Positions 4,110 to 14,681 of a stretch of 14,681 nucleotides of DNA are shown piece after piece; position 1 is the stretch's first letter; each line of letters opens with the position of its first letter. Source of the stretch: Promethearchaeati archaeon (GTDB taxonomy: Archaea; Asgardarchaeota; Heimdallarchaeia; JABLTI01); contig JABLTI010000073.1 of the NCBI GenBank assembly GCA_013166835.1, positions 1 to 14,681 of the forward strand. The letters run 5' to 3'. The translations under genes and the position numbers were made by a program. The notes under the pieces are model-generated. The model saw only the letters and a list, made by a program, of their open reading frames with translations. It ran no database searches and was not told the origin of the DNA.

Positions 4110-5225
4110 ATGAAGAAATCACAAATTATTGGTCTTGTACTTTTATCAACTTTCATTTTGATTCAAGTTTCCCTGCCAGCAATTTGTTTTGAGAATAATT
4201 ATCCTGAATCACCATCTTTTGTAAGTAATCTTCCCCCTAATTCTAATGAACTAATGCTACATTCTAATGGTGACTACATTATCTTTCATAACATGGAAGT
4301 GAAGATACAGTTAGATTATTCACTACATATAGAATCAACACTAGTAATTGAGAATAGTGAAAACGTAACCATTGATTACTTCCAGTATGTAATTAATGAT
4401 TCCATTAGCAATGCATTCGTTTCTGATCCTATAGGTTCTCTAGAATTTTCTTGGAATATATTTGAAGATTCTAGTGTCCTCAATATAACAATGAGGTATC
4501 CTTTACTTGAGGATCAAAAGTATGTAATAACAATTACTTACTTTCTAACCGATTTGCAACCCTTCTTCGTTGAAGAACCTTCTGAATTTTATACTCTTGA
4601 ATATGCCATTTTCCATTATTTAACTACTCAGAAGTTTGATTTAGAAATTTCTCTTCCATTAGGCTATGGTTTGATTACAGGTGAATCCCCACGACCAACT
4701 TATCCTATACCCGAACGAGTTTTCACAGAAGATAATATTGTGAAAATTTCTTGGACATCGTTGAATATTCTCCCTAAATATGAGTATTTGTATACTATTA
4801 GGTTCGAAGAAATAGGAGTAACTTTCTCAATTCCTACACCCCAATCGTATACTTACATCTATATTATACTTGCTTTCCTCGGGGGAGCAGCAGTAAGTAC
4901 GCTTGTGTTCTTCTTAATTATTAAACGAAAATATCATCCTGTAAAATCTGAGCTTGTTAGCTCATTATTATCTGATTCAGAACAAGCAGTCATAAAAGCT
5001 ATAAATGATGAAGGCGGGGTGGCGATACAGCGTCGAATTTGTGAACGCACTGGGTATTCAAAGTCAAAAGTTTCTCAAATCTTGCTGAAACTTGAAGAAA
5101 AGAACGTCTTAAAACGGGAACGATGGGGGCGAACAAACAAAGTATCTATTACAAATCCCTCTTTTCTCAACATAGAACTCGAGGGTAATGCCACTGCTCA
5201 AAAAAACAAGGACTTCAATGATTAA
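4110..5225 (+). CDS. Membrane-spanning transcriptional regulator A: signal peptide, ectodomain, TM helix, cytoplasmic winged HTH (COG2512/DUF7343-like)
   Basis: C-terminal LSDSEQAVIKAI...GG..IQRRICERTGYSKSKVSQILLKLE...RERWGRTNKV is the archaeal membrane-associated wHTH pattern; a hydrophobic TM (YIYIILAFLGGAAVSTLVFFLII) precedes it. Confidence 0.88.
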   Translation: MKKSQIIGLVLLSTFILIQVSLPAICFENNYPESPSFVSNLPPNSNELMLHSNGDYIIFHNMEVKIQLDYSLHIESTLVIENSENVTIDYFQYVINDSISNAFVSDPIGSLEFSWNIFEDSSVLNITMRYPLLEDQKYVITITYFLTDLQPFFVEEPSEFYTLEYAIFHYLTTQKFDLEISLPLGYGLITGESPRPTYPIPERVFTEDNIVKISWTSLNILPKYEYLYTIRFEEIGVTFSIPTPQSYTYIYIILAFLGGAAVSTLVFFLIIKRKYHPVKSELVSSLLSDSEQAVIKAINDEGGVAIQRRICERTGYSKSKVSQILLKLEEKNVLKRERWGRTNKVSITNPSFLNIELEGNATAQKNKDFND

Positions 5226-6500: not shown

Positions 6501-7592
6501 ATGTCTTCACGTAAAATCAAACTACTCATTATTCTCTCCATAATTTCATTTATGTCTTCAAATCTGATTAATTCTCATTATGCGGAATCAAGAGCACAAG
6601 TAACCAGTAATGATTTTTCACCACTAGTGAATACTGTCTCTTTTCTTAATCCGACATCAATTGAAAACGAAACCTTGCTAGCACACAATATGAAAGTAAA
6701 CATAAATTCTGATAATTCACTCAAAGTCACCTCAACTTTTGTTCTAACAAACAATAATAGTCAACCATTAGCTTTTTTTGCTGTTGAAATAAGCAAAAAT
6801 ATTACCTCTGTATTTTCATTTGATCCTATCGGTTCTTTGAGTTTTTCATGGATTCTTAACCAATCAACAGGAAGCTTGATTAATGTTACAATGCGTTATC
6901 CTTTGTTTCCGAGTGAAATCTATGTGTTCTCTATTTCATATCAAATTGATAATGTAATCTATTTTGTTCAGGAACCCATAGAATATTACGGATTAGATTT
7001 TGAAACCATTCATCCTCGGTCTACTGAAGTCTTCGATTTAGAAATGTGTTTGCCTGGTGAAAGTGATCTTCTTGATCAAAGTCCACCAGAACCAGTCTAT
7101 CCTCGACCAGATAGAGTCTTTGAAGAAGATAATATTGTAAAAATAAATTGGATCTTAGAAGATAGAGATTTGGATGATAATGATGTTTTCCTTATCAGAT
7201 TTGTTGTAAAAACAACTGCAATTAATCCCGGGTCTAATCTAAAACCATTATTCTATATCTTAACTTTATTAGCTGGAATAGTTTTAGGTTCTCTCACTTT
7301 GTTCTTGATTTATAAATTGAAATTTAAACCTGCTGAAAGTCTATTAGTCAGTTCTTTACTAACCAAAACTGAACAAGAAGTCATTAAGGCAATTAATCAA
7401 GATGATGGAGTTTCTACACAAAGAAGGATTTGTGAAAAAACAGGCTATTCAAAATCTAAGGTGTCTCAAATACTTCTCAAACTTGAACAAAGAAATGTCC
7501 TCGTTCGGGAACGTTGGGGAAGAACCAATAAAGTAACAATTACCGCTCCAACCTTCAAATCCATCGGAGTTTCTGAAGAGAAAACTGAATGA
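6501..7592 (+). CDS. Membrane-spanning transcriptional regulator B (paralog of 4110-5225)
   Basis: Same architecture as A; wHTH region 55/71 identical by hand alignment; ectodomain shares HNMxV, DPIGSLxFSW, NxTMRYPL and VFxEDNIVKIxW. Confidence 0.88.
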   Translation: MSSRKIKLLIILSIISFMSSNLINSHYAESRAQVTSNDFSPLVNTVSFLNPTSIENETLLAHNMKVNINSDNSLKVTSTFVLTNNNSQPLAFFAVEISKNITSVFSFDPIGSLSFSWILNQSTGSLINVTMRYPLFPSEIYVFSISYQIDNVIYFVQEPIEYYGLDFETIHPRSTEVFDLEMCLPGESDLLDQSPPEPVYPRPDRVFEEDNIVKINWILEDRDLDDNDVFLIRFVVKTTAINPGSNLKPLFYILTLLAGIVLGSLTLFLIYKLKFKPAESLLVSSLLTKTEQEVIKAINQDDGVSTQRRICEKTGYSKSKVSQILLKLEQRNVLVRERWGRTNKVTITAPTFKSIGVSEEKTE

Positions 7593-8567: not shown

Positions 8568-9701
8568 TTGAGTAAAAAAGCTACAACTGGTTCTGAAGTA
8601 GATACAGAACCTGAGGTGAAGGATTTGGATGAAAAAGGTGCAACTTACAAGAAATCAGGAGTAGATATTGTTGAAGAAGGAGAAGTAATTGAAGAAATCT
8701 GGAAATTGCTGCCAAAAACTTTCAAATTAAATCCAAAAGCCAAATTTTTACCCGCGATGTCTCATTATGGTGGAATTGTAGATATTGGTATACCTGACAA
8801 ATACTTAGTAGTTACAGTTGATGGTGTTGGGTCAAAGGTTCTCATTGCTGAAATGCTCGAAAAATTCGATACTGTAGGCATTGATTGTATAGCTATGAAT
8901 GTAAATGATTTGATCTGTGTTGGAGCTGAACCTCTTGTTTTTGTGGATTATTTTGCTATCGAACAACCTGATACTATCATGGCAAATCAAATAGCAAGGG
9001 GATTAGTTGAAGGAGCAATCCAATCAAAAATAGCAGTAGTAGGTGGAGAAACTGCTACTTTACCAGACATCATCCGGGGCCATAATGGCAAAGGATTTGA
9101 TTTAGCTGGAACTGCAATAGGTTTAGTTGAGAAAAAGAAACTTATTCTTGGTGATAAAATTAAACTGGGAGATATTATCTATGGTATTGAGAGTAACGGA
9201 TTACATTCAAATGGTTACTCATTAGCAAGGAGCGTCTTATTAGAGAAACATACCGTAAATGATGTTGTTGATGGATTACATCTCGGTGAAGAATTAATCA
9301 AACCCACTTTGATTTATGTTCAAGAAGTTCTTGAGATGATCAATAAAGCTGAAATTCATGGCTTAGCTAATATCACTGGTGGATCTTTCCTCAAATTAGC
9401 CCGATTAATGAGACAAGCAAAAACAACTATTGGTGTTAAGCTTGATTCATTACCTGAACCACTTCCACTTTTCAAATTAATTCAGAAAATGGGTAATGTT
9501 TCAGTAAAAGAAATGTACAAGACATTCAATATGGGCATAGGTTTTTGTGTTATTGCTCCAGAATTAGAGGAAACAACACTTAAAGAAATTTGTAAGAAAC
9601 ATGGGAAGAAGCTATTTAGAATTGGGTCAATTATAGATGAGAAGAAGATAATTTTAGAATTACCTTCAGAAACGATCGAGTATCCCACTGATAAGTACTA
9701 A
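8568..9701 (+). CDS. purM: Phosphoribosylformylglycinamidine cyclo-ligase (AIR synthetase)
   Basis: TYKKSGVDI, DGVGSK, GIDCIAMNVND, GGETA, SNGLHSNGYSL, ITGG and TFNMGIG motifs; TTG start with GAGGT RBS at 8556-8560. Confidence 0.97.
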   Translation: MSKKATTGSEVDTEPEVKDLDEKGATYKKSGVDIVEEGEVIEEIWKLLPKTFKLNPKAKFLPAMSHYGGIVDIGIPDKYLVVTVDGVGSKVLIAEMLEKFDTVGIDCIAMNVNDLICVGAEPLVFVDYFAIEQPDTIMANQIARGLVEGAIQSKIAVVGGETATLPDIIRGHNGKGFDLAGTAIGLVEKKKLILGDKIKLGDIIYGIESNGLHSNGYSLARSVLLEKHTVNDVVDGLHLGEELIKPTLIYVQEVLEMINKAEIHGLANITGGSFLKLARLMRQAKTTIGVKLDSLPEPLPLFKLIQKMGNVSVKEMYKTFNMGIGFCVIAPELEETTLKEICKKHGKKLFRIGSIIDEKKIILELPSETIEYPTDKY

Positions 9702-12777: not shown

Positions 12778-13054
12778 ACTTGTTTTTCTCCTGTTCTTTG
12801 AATCTCGAAACTATCCTTTAGGTAATATCTTGTAACGATTTTTAGTGTTTTCGCAGTTTAATCGTAAAAACATTCATTTTTTAGAATATGTGTCTATATG
12901 TCATTTAACAAAACTTATTTTAACATAAACGTTAACAAAAAGCGAGTAGTTAAGGAACAAGAAAAACGGACTCAGTTAATAAAATCAAATTTCCATCATT
13001 TATAAAAACATCCTCATGAGGAATGATTAAGTATATCTCAGGAGATATTGAGAA

Positions 13055-13807
13055 ATGCCCATTGCTAGACAAGTTATGATATTAACAAAAGAGGGGTTAT
13101 TACTTTTAGATTACAAGTTCAGAGTAGATGATGGAGATTTAATGGAAACAGATCCGGATCTTCTATCTGGTATGTTATCAGCAATCCTCGCGGTAGCTAA
13201 AGAAACAACAGGTGGGTTAGTACAAACCATCCATCAAGACAAATATAATGTGCTGATAAGCGAAGGTGAAAAAGTCTATGCTCTACTCTTTATTGATGAA
13301 GAGAGCAGAGAGCTTGATAACATAGCAAAGTTGATTGTCGGAAGATTTGAAGCAAAATACAAAGAAGAATTGAAGGAAATAGTCTCAGACGTTTCAGTAT
13401 TCAAAACCTTCCTGAAGGACCTTGGAGAGATTTATGCTCAAATATTCAAGGTAGATGCAGAACTACTCTCAAAAATCATACCTGAAGTAACCAACATTAA
13501 AAACGTCTCTATCTTTGAAAAACCAATGAATCATCAAGTCTACACAGGTCCAAGAGATCCATTTGTAAGTGACTATGAACACTATTTCCAGGAATTTGCT
13601 GTGAAACTCATCGAAAGCCAAGCGGAATTTTCAGAGAAGACACTACAATTCCCAAATAGAACAATATTGGATTACGGAACAAGGGTCATAGTATTAGAAG
13701 ATCTAGGTTCACACGTGCTAATGATAATAGGCGAAAATGCAGACGATATATTAGCAAAAATAAAGAGAATAAGAAGGAAAGCAGGATTACAAGCTCTTAA
13801 AAGATAA
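13055..13807 (+). CDS. Asgard-type longin-like domain protein with a probable second roadblock/longin-like domain
   Basis: N-terminal pattern VMILTKEGLLLL...DPDLLSGMLSAI...E...VQTI...FEAKY resembles Asgard longin-fold proteins. The C-terminal ~110 aa show a helix/strand alternation compatible with a roadblock fold. GGAG RBS and TTTATAAA at 12999-13006. Confidence 0.65.
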   Translation: MPIARQVMILTKEGLLLLDYKFRVDDGDLMETDPDLLSGMLSAILAVAKETTGGLVQTIHQDKYNVLISEGEKVYALLFIDEESRELDNIAKLIVGRFEAKYKEELKEIVSDVSVFKTFLKDLGEIYAQIFKVDAELLSKIIPEVTNIKNVSIFEKPMNHQVYTGPRDPFVSDYEHYFQEFAVKLIESQAEFSEKTLQFPNRTILDYGTRVIVLEDLGSHVLMIIGENADDILAKIKRIRRKAGLQALKR

Positions 13808-13914
13808 TAATTGATGACCAAAAGTTCAAGCACATAAATTTTATTCGCTATTTTTCACAAGTTTTAAAATACTTAAGAAATTAAACAAGGCAAAAACTAA
13901 TTGGAGTTTTGGCA

Positions 13915-14411
13915 ATGCGAGAAGACGTAAAGAAAATCTGGCCAGAAATAGAATGGATAAAAGATAAGACACTAAAAGAAAATGTCTACAAAACATGGGA
14001 ATACGCATTAGAACAGAGCGTTTTAAGTGCAGAAGATTTAGAGAAAATAGAGCAGTAGTATCCATAGCAGTGGACTCAGCAAAAGTCATGCAGAAGTTCT
14101 TCGGAGAGAAACTACCAATAAAAATGGATCTACTAATTGCTGGAGCAATACTCATAGATGTTGGAAAACTATTGGAATACGTTCTAGAAGATGGGAAAGC
14201 AGTAGTAGGAAAAACAGGAAAACTATTACGACATCCATTCACAGGAGTAGGATTAGCAATGATGTTCGACATACCAGATGAAGTATGTCACATGATAGCA
14301 ACACACTCAAAAGAAGGAGACCTAGGAAAAAGAACAGTAGAAGGAATAATAGTACATCACGCAGACTTTATCAGCTATGAACCATTCAAAGCAGATACAC
14401 TTCGGTTGTAA
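13915..14411 (+). pseudogene. HD-domain-like phosphohydrolase, frameshifted near 14049
   Basis: ATG 13915 (GGAG RBS 13903-13906) reads MREDVKKIWPEIEWIKDKTLKENVYKTWEYALEQSVLSAEDLEKIEQ* (TAG 14056-14058). The -1 frame from 14049 continues RAVVSIA...GAILIDVGKLLEY...LRHPFTG...IATHSKEG...VHHAD, typical HD-superfamily motifs. Confidence 0.75.
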
Positions 14412-14495
14412 AAGAAAGAGAGTTAGAAACCATAATCTTAACAAACGAAAGATTCAAAAAGAAAAAAGAAAGGAAAACCTAATGCTGAATAATGT

Positions 14496-14572
14496 GGGCG
14501 GTTGATCTAGCCTGGCATGATACCTCCTTGACGTGGAGGAAGTCCCCGGTTCAAATCCGGGATCGCCCACCA
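14496..14572 (+). tRNA. tRNA-Val (anticodon GAC), intronless, CCA encoded
   Basis: Acceptor GGGCGGT/ATCGCCC, anticodon arm CCTCC-TTGACGT-GGAGG, T arm CCCGG-TTCAAAT-CCGGG, discriminator A14569, CCA 14570-14572. Confidence 0.97.
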
Positions 14573-14574
14573 AT

Positions 14575-14681
14575 CTATTTCTCTAATCCTTCTATTTCTT
14601 TCAAGATTTTCGCATATACTTTTGCAGATAGTCTGAATGTTGTTGTTGTTATTAATTGCGCTAGTAATGTTTGGCTCTCTT
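14575..14681 (-). CDS. C-terminal end of a gene entering from the right, possibly DUF3368/PIN-type protein
   Basis: Manual translation ...ESQTLLAQLITTTTFRLSAKVYAKILKEIEGLEK* (TAG at 14577-14575); FRLSxxxYxxIL resembles DUF3368 C-termini. Only 34 sense codons visible. Confidence 0.55.
   Translation of the reverse strand, partial: ESQTLLAQLITTTTFRLSAKVYAKILKEIEGLEK

What the first reader, a model, noticed from the sequence alone, without database searches (positions are those of the whole stretch)
13300..14681. Extreme synonymous A-bias rising toward tRNA-Val and mirrored on the opposite strand beyond it
Seen (hand counts): in 14049-14408, 46 of 56 fourfold-degenerate codons end in A and 4 in T, including 30 consecutive A-ending ones at 14199-14399. 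In the first ~94 codons of purM the split is about 16 A / 19 T of 42. The bias rises gradually inside the longin gene (mixed 5' part, A-rich 3' part) rather than at a sharp junction. Past the tRNA the + strand turns T-rich and the incoming minus-strand gene again uses ACA ACA ACA ACA, CTA, GCA, GTA, GGA, ATA. So each strand heading toward the tRNA is A-rich and T-poor. Inference: a local strand-asymmetric mutation/repair or DNA-synthesis process centred on the tRNA locus (for example R-loop- or break-initiated synthesis), or selection against U-tracts near it. A simple foreign-gene explanation fits the within-gene gradient poorly. Only ~110 nt are visible on the right side.
Basis: partly seen in the sequence, partly recalled or inferred. 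Interest (0 to 1): 0.75.

Follow-up and report, generated by a model that had tools for sequence, protein, structure and literature searches.

The report
Strand skew flips at tRNA genes
In this Heimdallarchaeota genome and its relatives, the freely changeable DNA positions become almost all A on whichever strand reads toward a tRNA or rRNA gene and flip to T just past it, a mutational footprint that looks like that of a small replication origin.

Summary

- It is a DNA-strand property, not a codon preference. Genes on the opposite strand inside such zones are T-rich, and neighbouring genes correlate by strand.
- The skew flips at tRNA-Val and fades within about 4 kb on both sides. This is seen in relatives and in the contig that probably continues the window.
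- It recurs at other stable-RNA genes: 18 of 22 tRNAs in this genome (0 of 3000 random controls reach the pooled value), 25 of 28 in a congener, and 32 of 37 tRNA/rRNA genes in a complete genome of another family.
- Sharp flips have almost only one polarity (10 vs 1 here; 41 vs 4 in the complete genome).
- That polarity is the same as at the broad skew turn near an Orc1/Cdc6 gene.
- Intergenic DNA and codon positions 1+2 shift the same way but less, which points to mutation bias.

Best reading: DNA synthesis repeatedly starts at heavily used RNA genes and runs outward. The mechanism is inferred, not shown. My literature searches found no description of this.

The parts
13055..13807 (+). The A bias rises along it toward the tRNA.
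   Evidence: Fourfold A/T by thirds is 12/10, 15/7 and 17/4. The gene is syntenic in 9 relatives. There is no Pfam hit. Two 151-nt contigs of a metatranscriptome run match it with no differences.
13915..14057 (+).
   Evidence: Fourfold sites are A 8, T 1, C 1 of 10. All 8 orthologues continue with 18 more codons at this point.
14048..14049 (.). Point where the window lacks 52 letters that other assemblies carry. This gap causes the frame break.
   Evidence: Contigs of runs X2 and X5 (two studies) have 52 letters between 14048 and 14049 and are otherwise identical. 52 = 1 mod 3, which joins the two frames.
14049..14411 (+). C-terminal piece of the same gene, with the extreme A bias.
   Evidence: Fourfold sites are A 46, T 4, C 3, G 3 of 56, with a run of 30 A. 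Protein identity to orthologues in the same genus is 83-92%.
14412..14495 (.). Non-coding spacer before the tRNA. It is also A-rich on the + strand.
   Evidence: AT skew is +0.58 in 14410-14493.
14496..14572 (+). tRNA-Val (anticodon GAC), the point where the skew changes sign.
   Evidence: ARAGORN. Rfam RF00005, 53.4 bits.
14542..14572 (+). 3' end of the tRNA, which recurs as a direct repeat about 0.9 kb downstream. It looks like the attachment-site repeat of an inserted cassette.
   Evidence: Contigs of X2 and X5 read 14681, then 778 other letters, then 14542-14572 again. A similar fragment lies in G007:C229 and in G000:C152.
14575..14681 (-). 3' end of a minus-strand ORF that runs toward the tRNA. 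Its coding strand is A-rich, so the + strand is T-rich here.
   Evidence: Translated (frame 2). Fourfold sites are A 10, G 2, T 1 of 13, counted from the sequence. AT skew is -0.41 in 14578-14661. The stretch is 91% identical to G004:C218:1123-1261.

Best explanation
The A-ending codons are the left arm of a symmetric skew inversion on the DNA strands, 1-4 kb long on each side, centred on the tRNA-Val locus. On both sides, the strand that reads 5'->3' toward the RNA gene is purine-rich, mainly A. The strand that reads away from it is T-rich.

The same structure sits at most tRNA genes and at the 16S and 23S rRNA genes of these Heimdallarchaeota. It also sits at some protein-coding genes, such as actin, EF-2, proteasome alpha and indolepyruvate oxidoreductase.

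Shown: it is a mutational footprint filtered by selection on the protein. The freest sites are nearly saturated. Intergenic sites and codon positions 1 and 2 move the same way, but less.

Inferred: DNA synthesis repeatedly starts at these heavily used genes and runs outward in both directions for a few kb. It could be primed by R-loops, or by broken ends that invade a sister chromosome copy. The flanks are therefore copied as if from a small local origin. The strand reading away from the site is then the leading-strand sequence, which is also the template of the lagging strand. That strand loses purines (A->T, G->T), as this lineage's leading strand appears to do weakly genome-wide.
For: Strand level, not codon level.
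- Fourfold skews of neighbouring genes correlate at +0.29 on the same strand (n=1446), -0.24 for convergent pairs (n=516) and -0.24 for divergent pairs (n=449).
- Pfam-confirmed genes on the opposite strand inside the zones have T-rich codons. The GNAT gene in L025 has T 0.86, the glyoxalase gene in C152 has T 0.64, and the LVIVD gene in C176 has T 0.61.
- Of 137 strong patches, 73 are T-rich and 45 A-rich on the coding strand.

Centred on RNA genes, and symmetric.
- L025 per-gene values are +0.34, +0.65, +0.97, +0.91 | tRNA-Val | -0.87, -0.73, -0.28, -0.08.
- Pooled profiles fall to zero by about 4 kb and are alike upstream and downstream of the RNA gene.
- The 16S and 23S rRNA genes are centres too.

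One polarity only. Forty-site window contrasts of >=36 number 120 against 2 of the opposite sign in G000. Contrasts of >=40 number 338 against 1 in G016.

Origin-like sign. In G016 the cumulative skew of sites more than 5 kb from RNA genes peaks at 2,036,041. That is 48 kb from the best Cdc6_C hit (1,988,077). Skew is +0.092 in the 200 kb to its left and -0.043 in the 200 kb to its right. The minimum lies at 330,625.

Mutational.
- Intergenic skew is +0.20 falling to -0.01, and codon positions 1+2 show +0.05 to +0.09 near the genes against +0.003 far away.
- G is kept or raised while T and C are lost.

Recent and in place. G004 and G005 differ by 4-5% over 7 kb. In the last 250 nt before the tRNA they differ by 10.8%, with 12 T>A changes and 0 A>T.

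Link to use. In G016 the amplitude correlates with the codon demand of each tRNA (rho 0.43, p 0.009, n=35).
Against: - No initiation event, R-loop or break has been observed. The mechanism rests on polarity and shape alone.
- The local skew (0.3-0.97) is far stronger than the genome-wide replication-type skew (0.03-0.09). The same process at the same rate cannot explain both without extra assumptions.
- The calibration of sign uses 2.4 of 3.08 Mb of a single genome and a weak broad trend. That the Orc1/Cdc6 neighbour is the origin is assumed.
- No Orc1/Cdc6 gene lies next to the window's tRNA among the genes scanned.
- G005 has tRNA-Val beside the gene but no skew on either side.
- In G000 the amplitude does not follow codon demand (rho 0.10, n=22).
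- In G016, 29 of 41 sharp flips are not near a stable-RNA gene.
- One flip sits at the same codon of a TPP-binding motif in three paralogue groups. Another sits at an intein junction in RtcB. These fit a site-specific break better than R-loops.
- No genome outside this class could be tested.
Confidence: 0.5

Rival explanations
1. Replication forks arriving from either side stall at the heavily transcribed RNA gene. The nascent strands behind the stalled fork are degraded and remade by an error-prone polymerase, or the leading-strand template is left single-stranded. This imprints a bias that fades with the length of the remade tract.
For: - The centres are the most transcribed genes: tRNA, rRNA, and genes such as actin and EF-2.
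- The range is in kilobases and is symmetric.
- Amplitude follows tRNA demand in G016.
Against: Forks moving toward the site would make the toward-reading strand the leading strand. By the broad G016 trend, the leading strand is T-rich, not A-rich. This rival therefore needs a separate bias of opposite sign. A simple 'insert A' polymerase error would also deplete G, which is not seen.
Confidence: 0.15
2. Transcription alone is the cause. Read-through and divergent non-coding transcription from the strong RNA-gene promoters leaves the non-template strand, which reads away from the gene, single-stranded in bubbles or R-loops. That strand loses purines there. No DNA synthesis starts at the site.
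For: The polarity fits, because the RNA-like strand of outward transcription is the T-rich one. Centres are strongly transcribed genes. The correlation with codon demand in G016 also fits. Raised mutation at eukaryotic tRNA flanks is documented (PMC6130373, passages read).
Against: - The effect is equally strong and long upstream and downstream of the RNA gene. Read-through should favour the downstream side.
- It extends 3-4 kb through protein genes of either orientation, and their own transcription does not change the sign.
- The changes are transversions toward purine, not the transitions reported for that process.
Confidence: 0.12
3. Recurrent site-specific double-strand breaks occur at these sites, made by integrases acting at tRNA 3' ends or by homing endonucleases at conserved motifs. 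They are repaired by short-tract gene conversion from another chromosome copy with biased repair synthesis. No replication fork is set up.
For: - The flips are sharp to within a few codons.
- One lies at the same TPP-motif codon in three paralogue groups and several species.
- One lies at the RtcB intein junction.
- The tRNA-Val 3' end is a repeat flanking an inserted cassette.
- The 1-4 kb reach resembles conversion tracts (recalled).
Against: With 5'->3' resection, the exposed strand is the one reading toward the break. Purine loss there would make it T-rich, the opposite of what is seen (inference from recalled enzymology). rRNA genes and about 30 different tRNAs would each need their own nuclease, or a break cause that is not sequence-specific. 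No nuclease was identified.
Confidence: 0.1
4. Selection rather than mutation is the cause. One version is avoidance of U-tracts (archaeal terminators) in RNAs heading toward the RNA gene. Another is enrichment of T-tracts to stop transcripts leaving it.
For: T is the most depleted base on the toward-reading strand, and C-ending codons replace T-ending ones.
Against: - Nearly every free site is affected over kilobases, which is far more than terminator avoidance needs.
- Genes on the opposite strand in the same zone carry U-rich mRNAs.
- Intergenic sites and amino-acid-changing positions shift too.
- Selection per synonymous site would be very weak (inference).
Confidence: 0.05
5. The DNA is foreign, or it is an artefact. 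One version is a horizontally acquired island with its donor's codon usage. The other is a chimeric or erroneous assembly at a contig end.
For: The right flank does hold an inserted cassette bounded by tRNA-end repeats. The window's contig ends there and carries a 52-letter gap. G007's assembly breaks inside the zone.
Against: - The left-flank genes are syntenic in 9 relatives, and their bias varies from none to extreme.
- The bias follows the strand, not the gene.
- Identical sequence occurs in contigs from two other studies.
- The same structure is present in a complete genome.
Confidence: 0.03

Closest known systems
Skew inversion at replication origins (bacterial and archaeal GC/AT skew; the sharp 'upward jumps' bounding N-shaped skew domains in mammalian genomes).
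   Same: Strand composition changes sign at a fixed point. Only one polarity is sharp. The sign agrees with the broad turn near an Orc1/Cdc6 gene in G016.
   Different: - The reach is about 4 kb instead of a whole replichore or domain.
- There are dozens of centres.
- The centres are stable-RNA genes and some protein genes, with no Orc1/Cdc6 beside them.
- The bias is purine against pyrimidine.
- The amplitude reaches 0.97 at free sites, against 0.03-0.09 genome-wide.
Transcription-associated mutagenesis at eukaryotic tRNA loci (Thornlow et al. 2018, PMC6130373; passages read)
   Same: tRNA genes are hot spots whose flanks evolve fast. The effect is linked to how active the gene is.
   Different: That effect peaks some 10-15 bases from the gene and lies in the immediate flanks. 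It is described as excess conversions between G and A, and it is stronger on the 5' side. Here the effect spans kilobases, is symmetric, and consists of transversions toward purine on the inward-reading strand.
R-loop-primed or break-induced, origin-independent replication (stable DNA replication in E. coli rnhA mutants; origin-less Haloferax and Thermococcus; mutagenic break-induced replication in yeast).
   Same: These processes offer a way to start outward DNA synthesis at transcribed genes or at breaks. Long single-stranded intermediates give strand-coordinated mutation.
   Different: No such activity has been shown in Asgard archaea. Nothing here measures initiation. The long-term compositional footprint described here has not, to my knowledge, been reported for those systems.
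'Structuring effects of archaeal replication origins' (bioRxiv 10.1101/2023.11.15.567178; only the start of the abstract seen in the listing)
   Same: It deals with local departures from strand parity in archaeal chromosomes.
   Different: That abstract attributes them to biased gene orientation and not to mutation. Here the measure is fourfold sites expressed on one strand. The sign holds through genes of both orientations and in intergenic DNA.

Membership tests
Replication-origin skew inversion | Strand skew changes sign at the site, with the leading-strand sign on the outward-reading strands. | tested here: met
   A-rich changes to T-rich on the + strand at tRNA-Val. The broad turn near the Cdc6_C gene in G016 has the same sign. 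This calibration rests on one genome, 2.4 of 3.08 Mb.
Replication-origin skew inversion | An Orc1/Cdc6 initiator gene lies next to the site. | tested here: not met
   No Cdc6 or AAA initiator family appears among the window's genes or the flanking genes of relatives that were scanned. Origin-recognition-box repeats were not searched for.
Replication-origin skew inversion | The skew persists over the whole replicated arm. | tested here: not met
   It falls to zero by about 4 kb.
Replication-origin skew inversion | Copy number peaks at the site in growing cells. | not testable with these tools
   The runs available are kept as contigs, with one depth figure per contig.
Transcription-associated mutagenesis at tRNA loci | Centred on active tRNA genes, and stronger for more active genes. 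| tested here: inconclusive
   It is centred on tRNA/rRNA genes. Amplitude against codon demand gives rho 0.43 (p 0.009, n=35) in G016 but 0.10 (n=22) in G000.
Transcription-associated mutagenesis at tRNA loci | Confined to the immediate, unwound flanks and asymmetric with respect to the direction of transcription. | tested here: not met
   The reach is 3-4 kb, and it is equal upstream and downstream.
Horizontally acquired island at a tRNA gene | Gene content differs between close relatives, and the island is bounded by repeats of the tRNA end. | tested here: not met
   This is not met for the A-rich left arm, which is syntenic in 9 relatives. It is met only for the ~0.9-kb cassette on the right.
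Horizontally acquired island at a tRNA gene | Atypical codon usage that follows the genes' own coding strand. | tested here: not met
   The sign follows the DNA strand. Opposite-strand genes have the reverse codon bias.
Translational codon adaptation | The bias follows the coding strand and tracks a genome-wide preferred-codon axis. | tested here: not met
   Across 2,875 genes the fourfold skew and C-ending Y codons correlate at only 0.09. Coding-strand T-rich patches outnumber A-rich ones, 73 to 45.
Break-induced / recombination-dependent replication mutagenesis | Strand-coordinated changes that switch strand at the break and extend for kilobases. | tested here: met
   The switch is sharp and the arms are 1-4 kb.
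Break-induced / recombination-dependent replication mutagenesis | A break or nuclease acting at the site. | not testable with these tools
   There are only indirect hints: a tRNA-end repeat around a cassette and an intein junction at one flip in G016.

The most novel reading that the evidence does not exclude
Heimdallarchaeial chromosomes start DNA synthesis at dozens of fixed sites, namely their tRNA and rRNA genes and some highly expressed protein genes. This happens in addition to, or instead of, a single Orc1/Cdc6 origin. Each site leaves a miniature origin-type skew jump. If so, these closest archaeal relatives of eukaryotes would already couple replication initiation to transcription at many loci. 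Their initiation sites could then be read from sequence alone in organisms that cannot be grown.
Probability: 0.3. Interest if true: 0.9.

Novelty: new variant of a known kind. Interest (0 to 1): 0.8.

Why it matters
Strand composition skews are the main sequence-only clue to how a chromosome is copied. In most archaea they are weak. Here a very strong, local and repeatable skew marks tRNA and rRNA genes in a lineage central to the origin of eukaryotes.

If it reflects DNA synthesis starting at these genes, several things follow:
- The replication mode of uncultured Asgard archaea becomes directly testable.
- It gives a map of candidate initiation or fragile sites.
- It links transcription, genome instability and replication in a way reminiscent of eukaryotes.

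Whatever the cause, there are practical consequences. Genes next to RNA genes in these genomes have codon usage, and even amino-acid composition, driven by position.
- This can mislead tests for horizontal transfer, expression predictions and phylogenies.
- It can make gene callers pick the wrong strand. A longest-ORF gene call did so in this window.

Tried and rejected
Codon-level explanations. I first suspected translational selection, because A- and C-ending codons match archaeal U34/G34 tRNAs (recalled). I dropped this after seeing the strand-level correlations and the T-rich real genes.

All-site AT skew. It was uninformative, because it mostly follows gene orientation.

Assembly chimera at conserved k-mers. 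I considered this because flips lie at tRNAs and at conserved motifs. I rejected it because the same flips recur in independent assemblies and in a complete genome.

GC-rich islands as the common cause. 721 non-tRNA GC peaks show no notable inversion; left and right skews all lie within +/-0.09.

Hidden RNA genes at the non-tRNA flips. Rfam at gathering threshold found only the known tRNAs in the window and six loci, and nothing in L027, L018, L020, L024 or L026.

The GC-rich hairpin repeat. An element at the C142 flip folds well (z = -6.0) and is conserved in 11 of 11 genomes of the family. Only 2 of its 6 copies in G000 sit at strong inversions, so it is not the general centre.

Homologues of the right-flank genes of relatives. 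I searched for them in G000 and found only weak hits elsewhere.

Script slip. One search printed nothing because of a module-name clash. I corrected this.

Gene calls. These came from my own ORF-based callers, with no gene finder available. The first caller picked an antisense ORF over the A-rich gene in the window. I fixed that by hand and replaced the caller.

Literature. Seven searches and passages of two papers (PMC8813620, where 'skew', 'replication origin' and 'codon usage' each occur 0 times; PMC6130373) gave no description of this pattern.

Sequencing runs. In run X8, 24 of the 30 bins carry any depth. The metatranscriptome run X20 covers only parts of the 250-aa gene and the tRNA. I draw nothing from the uncovered parts.

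This report is the same text with that field added.
Full report
WHAT IS THERE. The window is the whole of contig C188 of a 3.56-Mb, 260-contig, 34% G+C metagenome-assembled genome. Relatives found with the 250-aa protein carry record titles naming Candidatus Heimdallarchaeota in 7 of 9 cases. One is titled Bathyarchaeia and one Promethearchaeati.

The region holds, in order:
- a 250-aa protein gene (13055-13807, +);
- a ~183-aa protein gene in two frames (13915-14057 and 14049-14411, +);
- an 84-nt spacer;
- tRNA-Val(GAC) (14496-14572, +);
- the last 34 codons of a minus-strand ORF (14575-14681).

The purM-like gene is 8568-9701.

In 14049-14408 the 56 fourfold codons end in A 46, T 4, C 3 and G 3, with 30 A in a row.
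- T is avoided elsewhere too. C-ending Y codons are 14 of 24, against a genome mean of 0.25. ATA is 8 of 10 Ile codons and CTA is 7 of 13 Leu codons.
- The upstream piece has A 8 of 10.
- The 250-aa gene goes from 12 A/10 T to 17 A/4 T along its length.
- The minus-strand ORF past the tRNA has A 10 of 13 (read).
- The spacer is A-rich (+0.58) and the far side is T-rich (-0.41) at all sites.
- Genome-wide, fourfold A is 0.397 +/- 0.074 over 2,993 ORFs.
- Only 88 of 380,384 forty-site windows, on four contigs, match the window's value.
- Contigs from two other studies are identical over 12900-14477 except for 52 extra letters between 14048 and 14049. Those letters restore the reading frame. They correspond to the 18 codons that all 8 orthologues have at this point. 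The gene is therefore intact in those populations, and the window's frame break is an assembly error or a minority form.

IT IS A PROPERTY OF THE DNA STRAND. My first idea, selection for codons that match the tRNA pool, failed.
- Across 2,875 genes the fourfold A-T skew barely correlates with C-ending Y codons (0.09).
- Skews of neighbouring genes correlate at +0.29 when they share a strand (n=1446). They correlate at -0.24 when they do not (516 convergent and 449 divergent pairs).
- Of 137 strong patches, 73 are T-rich on the coding strand, 45 are A-rich and 19 span both orientations.
- The T-rich ORFs are real genes: an LVIVD-repeat protein, a POR gamma subunit, a glyoxalase and a zinc-ribbon protein.
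- In the relative L025, a GNAT acetyltransferase on the minus strand lies between the A-rich gene and the tRNA. It has T 0.86 at fourfold sites.

IT FLIPS AT THE tRNA AND FADES ON BOTH SIDES. The window shows only 109 nt on the right, but relatives show the rest.
- In L025 the + strand skew per gene is +0.34, +0.65, +0.97, +0.91 | tRNA-Val | -0.87, -0.73, -0.28, -0.08.
- L023, L021 and L028 also invert at tRNA-Val.
- In this genome, contig C152 read in reverse is probably the continuation. It shares gene order with G007:C229 and holds a fragment of the tRNA-Val end. Its + strand skew runs -0.35, -0.26, -0.79, -0.83, -0.61 up to tRNA-Gly(TCC) and then -0.08. This holds through genes of both orientations.

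THE BIAS BELONGS TO THE PLACE, NOT THE GENE. The locus is syntenic, yet the fourfold A/T of the ~183-aa gene varies widely:

| Genome | A / T |
|---|---|
| G008 | 0.87 / 0.03 |
| G010 | 0.86 / 0.01 |
| G001 | 0.81 / 0.01 |
| G009 | 0.74 / 0.05 |
| G011 | 0.60 / 0.09 |
| G004 | 0.60 / 0.28 |
| G005 | 0.43 / 0.39 |
| G006 | 0.33 / 0.24 |
| G032 | 0.29 / 0.60 |

- The three orthologues with no tRNA detected nearby (G006 within 8 kb; G032 and G023 within 1.5 kb) lack the bias.
- G005 is an exception. The tRNA is adjacent, a 6-kb insert follows it, and there is no skew on either side.
- G004 and G005 differ by 4-5% over 7 kb with balanced changes. In the last 250 nt before the tRNA they differ by 10.8%, with 12 T>A changes (G005 to G004), 0 A>T and 4 G>A. 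Homology ends at the tRNA.
- The two proteins are almost identical, and G004 keeps T at several sites where only G005 also has T. Change in place is therefore more economical than import of a foreign allele.

IT IS GENERAL.
- In G000 the pooled skew of 28 tRNAs goes from +0.22 in the last 500 nt before the gene to -0.12 just after it.
- Of the 22 tRNAs with both flanks, 18 have left greater than right. The pooled difference of +0.249 is reached by 0 of 3000 draws of 28 random intergenic gaps (null 0.012 +/- 0.031).
- Without the three strongest contigs the difference is still +0.22, with 16 of 19 positive.
- The orientation type of a gap has no such effect (-0.03 to +0.02).
- In G010, of the same genus, 25 of 28 tRNA loci agree.
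- In G016, a complete genome of another family, I could fetch 2.4 of 3.08 Mb. There, 32 of 37 stable-RNA genes agree and the median difference is 0.54.
- The separate 16S and 23S rRNA genes of G016 are centres too.
- The pooled profile is the same upstream and downstream of the RNA gene and reaches zero between 4 and 6 kb.

ONE POLARITY, THE ORIGIN'S. Reverse-complementing a contig does not change whether A-rich precedes T-rich, so the direction of the flip is meaningful.
- Strong contrasts between adjacent forty-site windows number 120 against 2 in G000, and sharp flips 10 against 1.
- In G016, contrasts of >=40 number 338 against 1, and sharp flips 41 against 4.
- In G016, sites more than 5 kb from RNA genes give a cumulative A-T curve with its maximum at 2,036,041 and its minimum at 330,625.
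- The best Cdc6_C match lies at 1,988,077. Skew is +0.092 in the 200 kb to its left and -0.043 in the 200 kb to its right.
- If that is the chromosomal origin, the outward-reading (leading) strand is T-rich. This is the same sign as at every local flip.

MUTATION, NOT SELECTION.
- Near RNA genes, intergenic DNA is skewed the same way. In G016 it goes from +0.20 within 250 nt to -0.01 beyond 6 kb. In G000 it is +0.15 within 500 nt.
- Codon positions 1 and 2 also shift, +0.05 to +0.09 against +0.003 in G016.
- The order is fourfold sites > all third positions > intergenic > positions 1+2. This is what a mutation bias filtered by constraint gives.
- On the inward-reading strand T and C are lost while G is kept or raised. 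In the relatives G is 0.07-0.19 against 0.086 genome-wide in G000, and G-C skew is +0.1 to +0.25 in G016.
- The changes are therefore pyrimidine to purine there. Equivalently, they are A>T and G>T on the outward-reading strand.
- By recalled chemistry this is what loss of purines from single-stranded DNA gives, followed by insertion of A opposite the gap.

HOW IT MOST LIKELY WORKS (inference). The outward-reading strand could be single-stranded in three situations: as the lagging-strand template of forks leaving the site, as the nascent strand of break-induced synthesis leaving the site, or as the non-template strand of outward transcription.
- The match with the sign of the genome's own broad skew and the up/downstream symmetry favour DNA synthesis that starts at these genes and moves outward. 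It could be primed by R-loops or by broken ends.
- The link with use is moderate. Amplitude follows the codon demand of each tRNA in G016 (rho 0.43, p 0.009, n=35) but not in G000 (rho 0.10, n=22).
- Forks stalling at the site predict the opposite sign under the same bias.
- Plain 5'->3' resection at a break also predicts the opposite sign.

WHAT DOES NOT FIT NEATLY.
- In G016, 29 of 41 sharp flips are not near a stable-RNA gene.
- Ten of these were scanned with Pfam. They lie in or next to actin, proteasome alpha, EF-2, SecY, an isoleucyl-type tRNA synthetase, Ldh_2, HypD, a RagA-like GTPase, one protein without a family, and RtcB.
- In RtcB the flip falls at about codon 104. That lies between the RtcB match (residues 49-101) and the intein match (residues 108-598).
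- In G000 a flip lies inside the indolepyruvate oxidoreductase alpha gene at the codons for the TPP-binding motif (D-N-x-x-T | A-M-T-G).
- The same flip occurs in 5 of 8 species for that gene and in 5 of 5 for a paralogue that is only 39% identical. It occurs more weakly in a third paralogue group, and not in three other families.
- No extra DNA conservation marks the spot. GC-rich islands as such do not cause flips. No known RNA family is there.
- Such precise, recurrent sites suggest a site-specific event, so the break-initiated form of the explanation stays open.
- The local amplitude is also far above the genome-wide one. The local process must therefore be much more frequent or more error-prone than ordinary replication.

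COMPARISON WITH WHAT IS KNOWN. The closest kinds are the following:
- origin-type skew inversions, which share the sign and the single sharp polarity, but not the reach, the number of sites or an initiator gene;
- transcription-associated mutagenesis at eukaryotic tRNA genes, which shares the centres but not the scale, symmetry or type of change (passages of PMC6130373);
- R-loop- or break-initiated replication, which is a possible mechanism not shown in these organisms (recalled).

The paper on circularised Heimdallarchaeum genomes reports many elements integrated at tRNA genes. It does not contain the words skew, replication origin or codon usage. A preprint abstract ascribes archaeal parity deviations to gene orientation (listing), and the measures used here exclude that. 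Seven literature searches found no account of this pattern.

VERDICT. The finding is real, strong and general in this class. The mechanism is a reasoned inference.

Noticed in passing
window 14048-14049: The window lacks 52 letters that contigs from two other studies carry here. This splits the ~183-aa gene into two frames. The gene is intact in those assemblies and in all 8 orthologues.
   Followed up: yes
window 14542-14572 and beyond the contig end: The last 31 nt of tRNA-Val recur after 778 further letters in contigs of two studies. In G007 the stretch between holds two small genes, one with a PIN domain. It looks like an inserted toxin-antitoxin-type cassette bounded by repeats of the tRNA end.
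   Followed up: partly
G000 contig C152 (L004), read in reverse: This is probably the window's right-hand continuation: a gene starting MSNEKSIKEIQ, tRNA-Ala(GGC), a glyoxalase gene, and tRNA-Gly(TCC). The T-rich zone stops at tRNA-Gly.
   Followed up: partly
G000 C176 11534 (L002), C41 7013 (L052), and C80 27448-29310 (L044): The synonymous bias flips from A to T at the same codon of the TPP-binding motif in three paralogous 2-oxoacid oxidoreductase alpha genes. It does so across several species of the family, but not in three other families.
   Followed up: partly
G016 1,558,207-1,561,182 (L237): A sharp flip lies at about codon 104 of RtcB, between the RtcB match (residues 49-101) and the start of an intein match (residue 108).
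   Followed up: no
G000 C142 15834-15920 (L003 6335-6421); also C77 77296, C77 80601, C185 41396, C185 42863, C121 1067: A repeated element about 75 nt long, with a GC-rich hairpin followed by a T run. The 131-nt stretch folds at z = -6.0. Matches occur in 11 of 11 genomes of the family and 0 of 19 outside it. No Rfam family matches. Two of its six copies in G000 sit at the ends of A-rich zones.
   Followed up: partly
G007 contigs C30 and C229 against window 13191-14183: The nearest relative's assembly breaks inside the 250-aa gene and restarts inside the next gene. The steepest part of the skew is therefore unassembled there, perhaps because of strain variation.
   Followed up: no
tRNA-Val(GAC) in L011, L013, L016, L019, L021, L025, L028 and L064: The orthologous tRNA has a 31-32-nt intron after position 39 in G004, G007, G010 and G011. 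It has none in G000, G005 or G009.
   Followed up: no
G016 1-2,400,000: All 40 tRNA genes found, and both rRNA genes, lie between 1.08 and 2.4 Mb. None lies in the first 1.08 Mb.
   Followed up: no
window 13841-14272 (-): A 143-aa antisense ORF is longer than the true gene's open frame, because the A-rich strand leaves few stop codons on its complement. A longest-ORF gene call picked the wrong strand here.
   Followed up: yes
window 4110-5225 and 6501-7592: Two paralogous genes, each with a C-terminal DUF7343 domain, lie 1.3 kb apart on the same strand.
   Followed up: no
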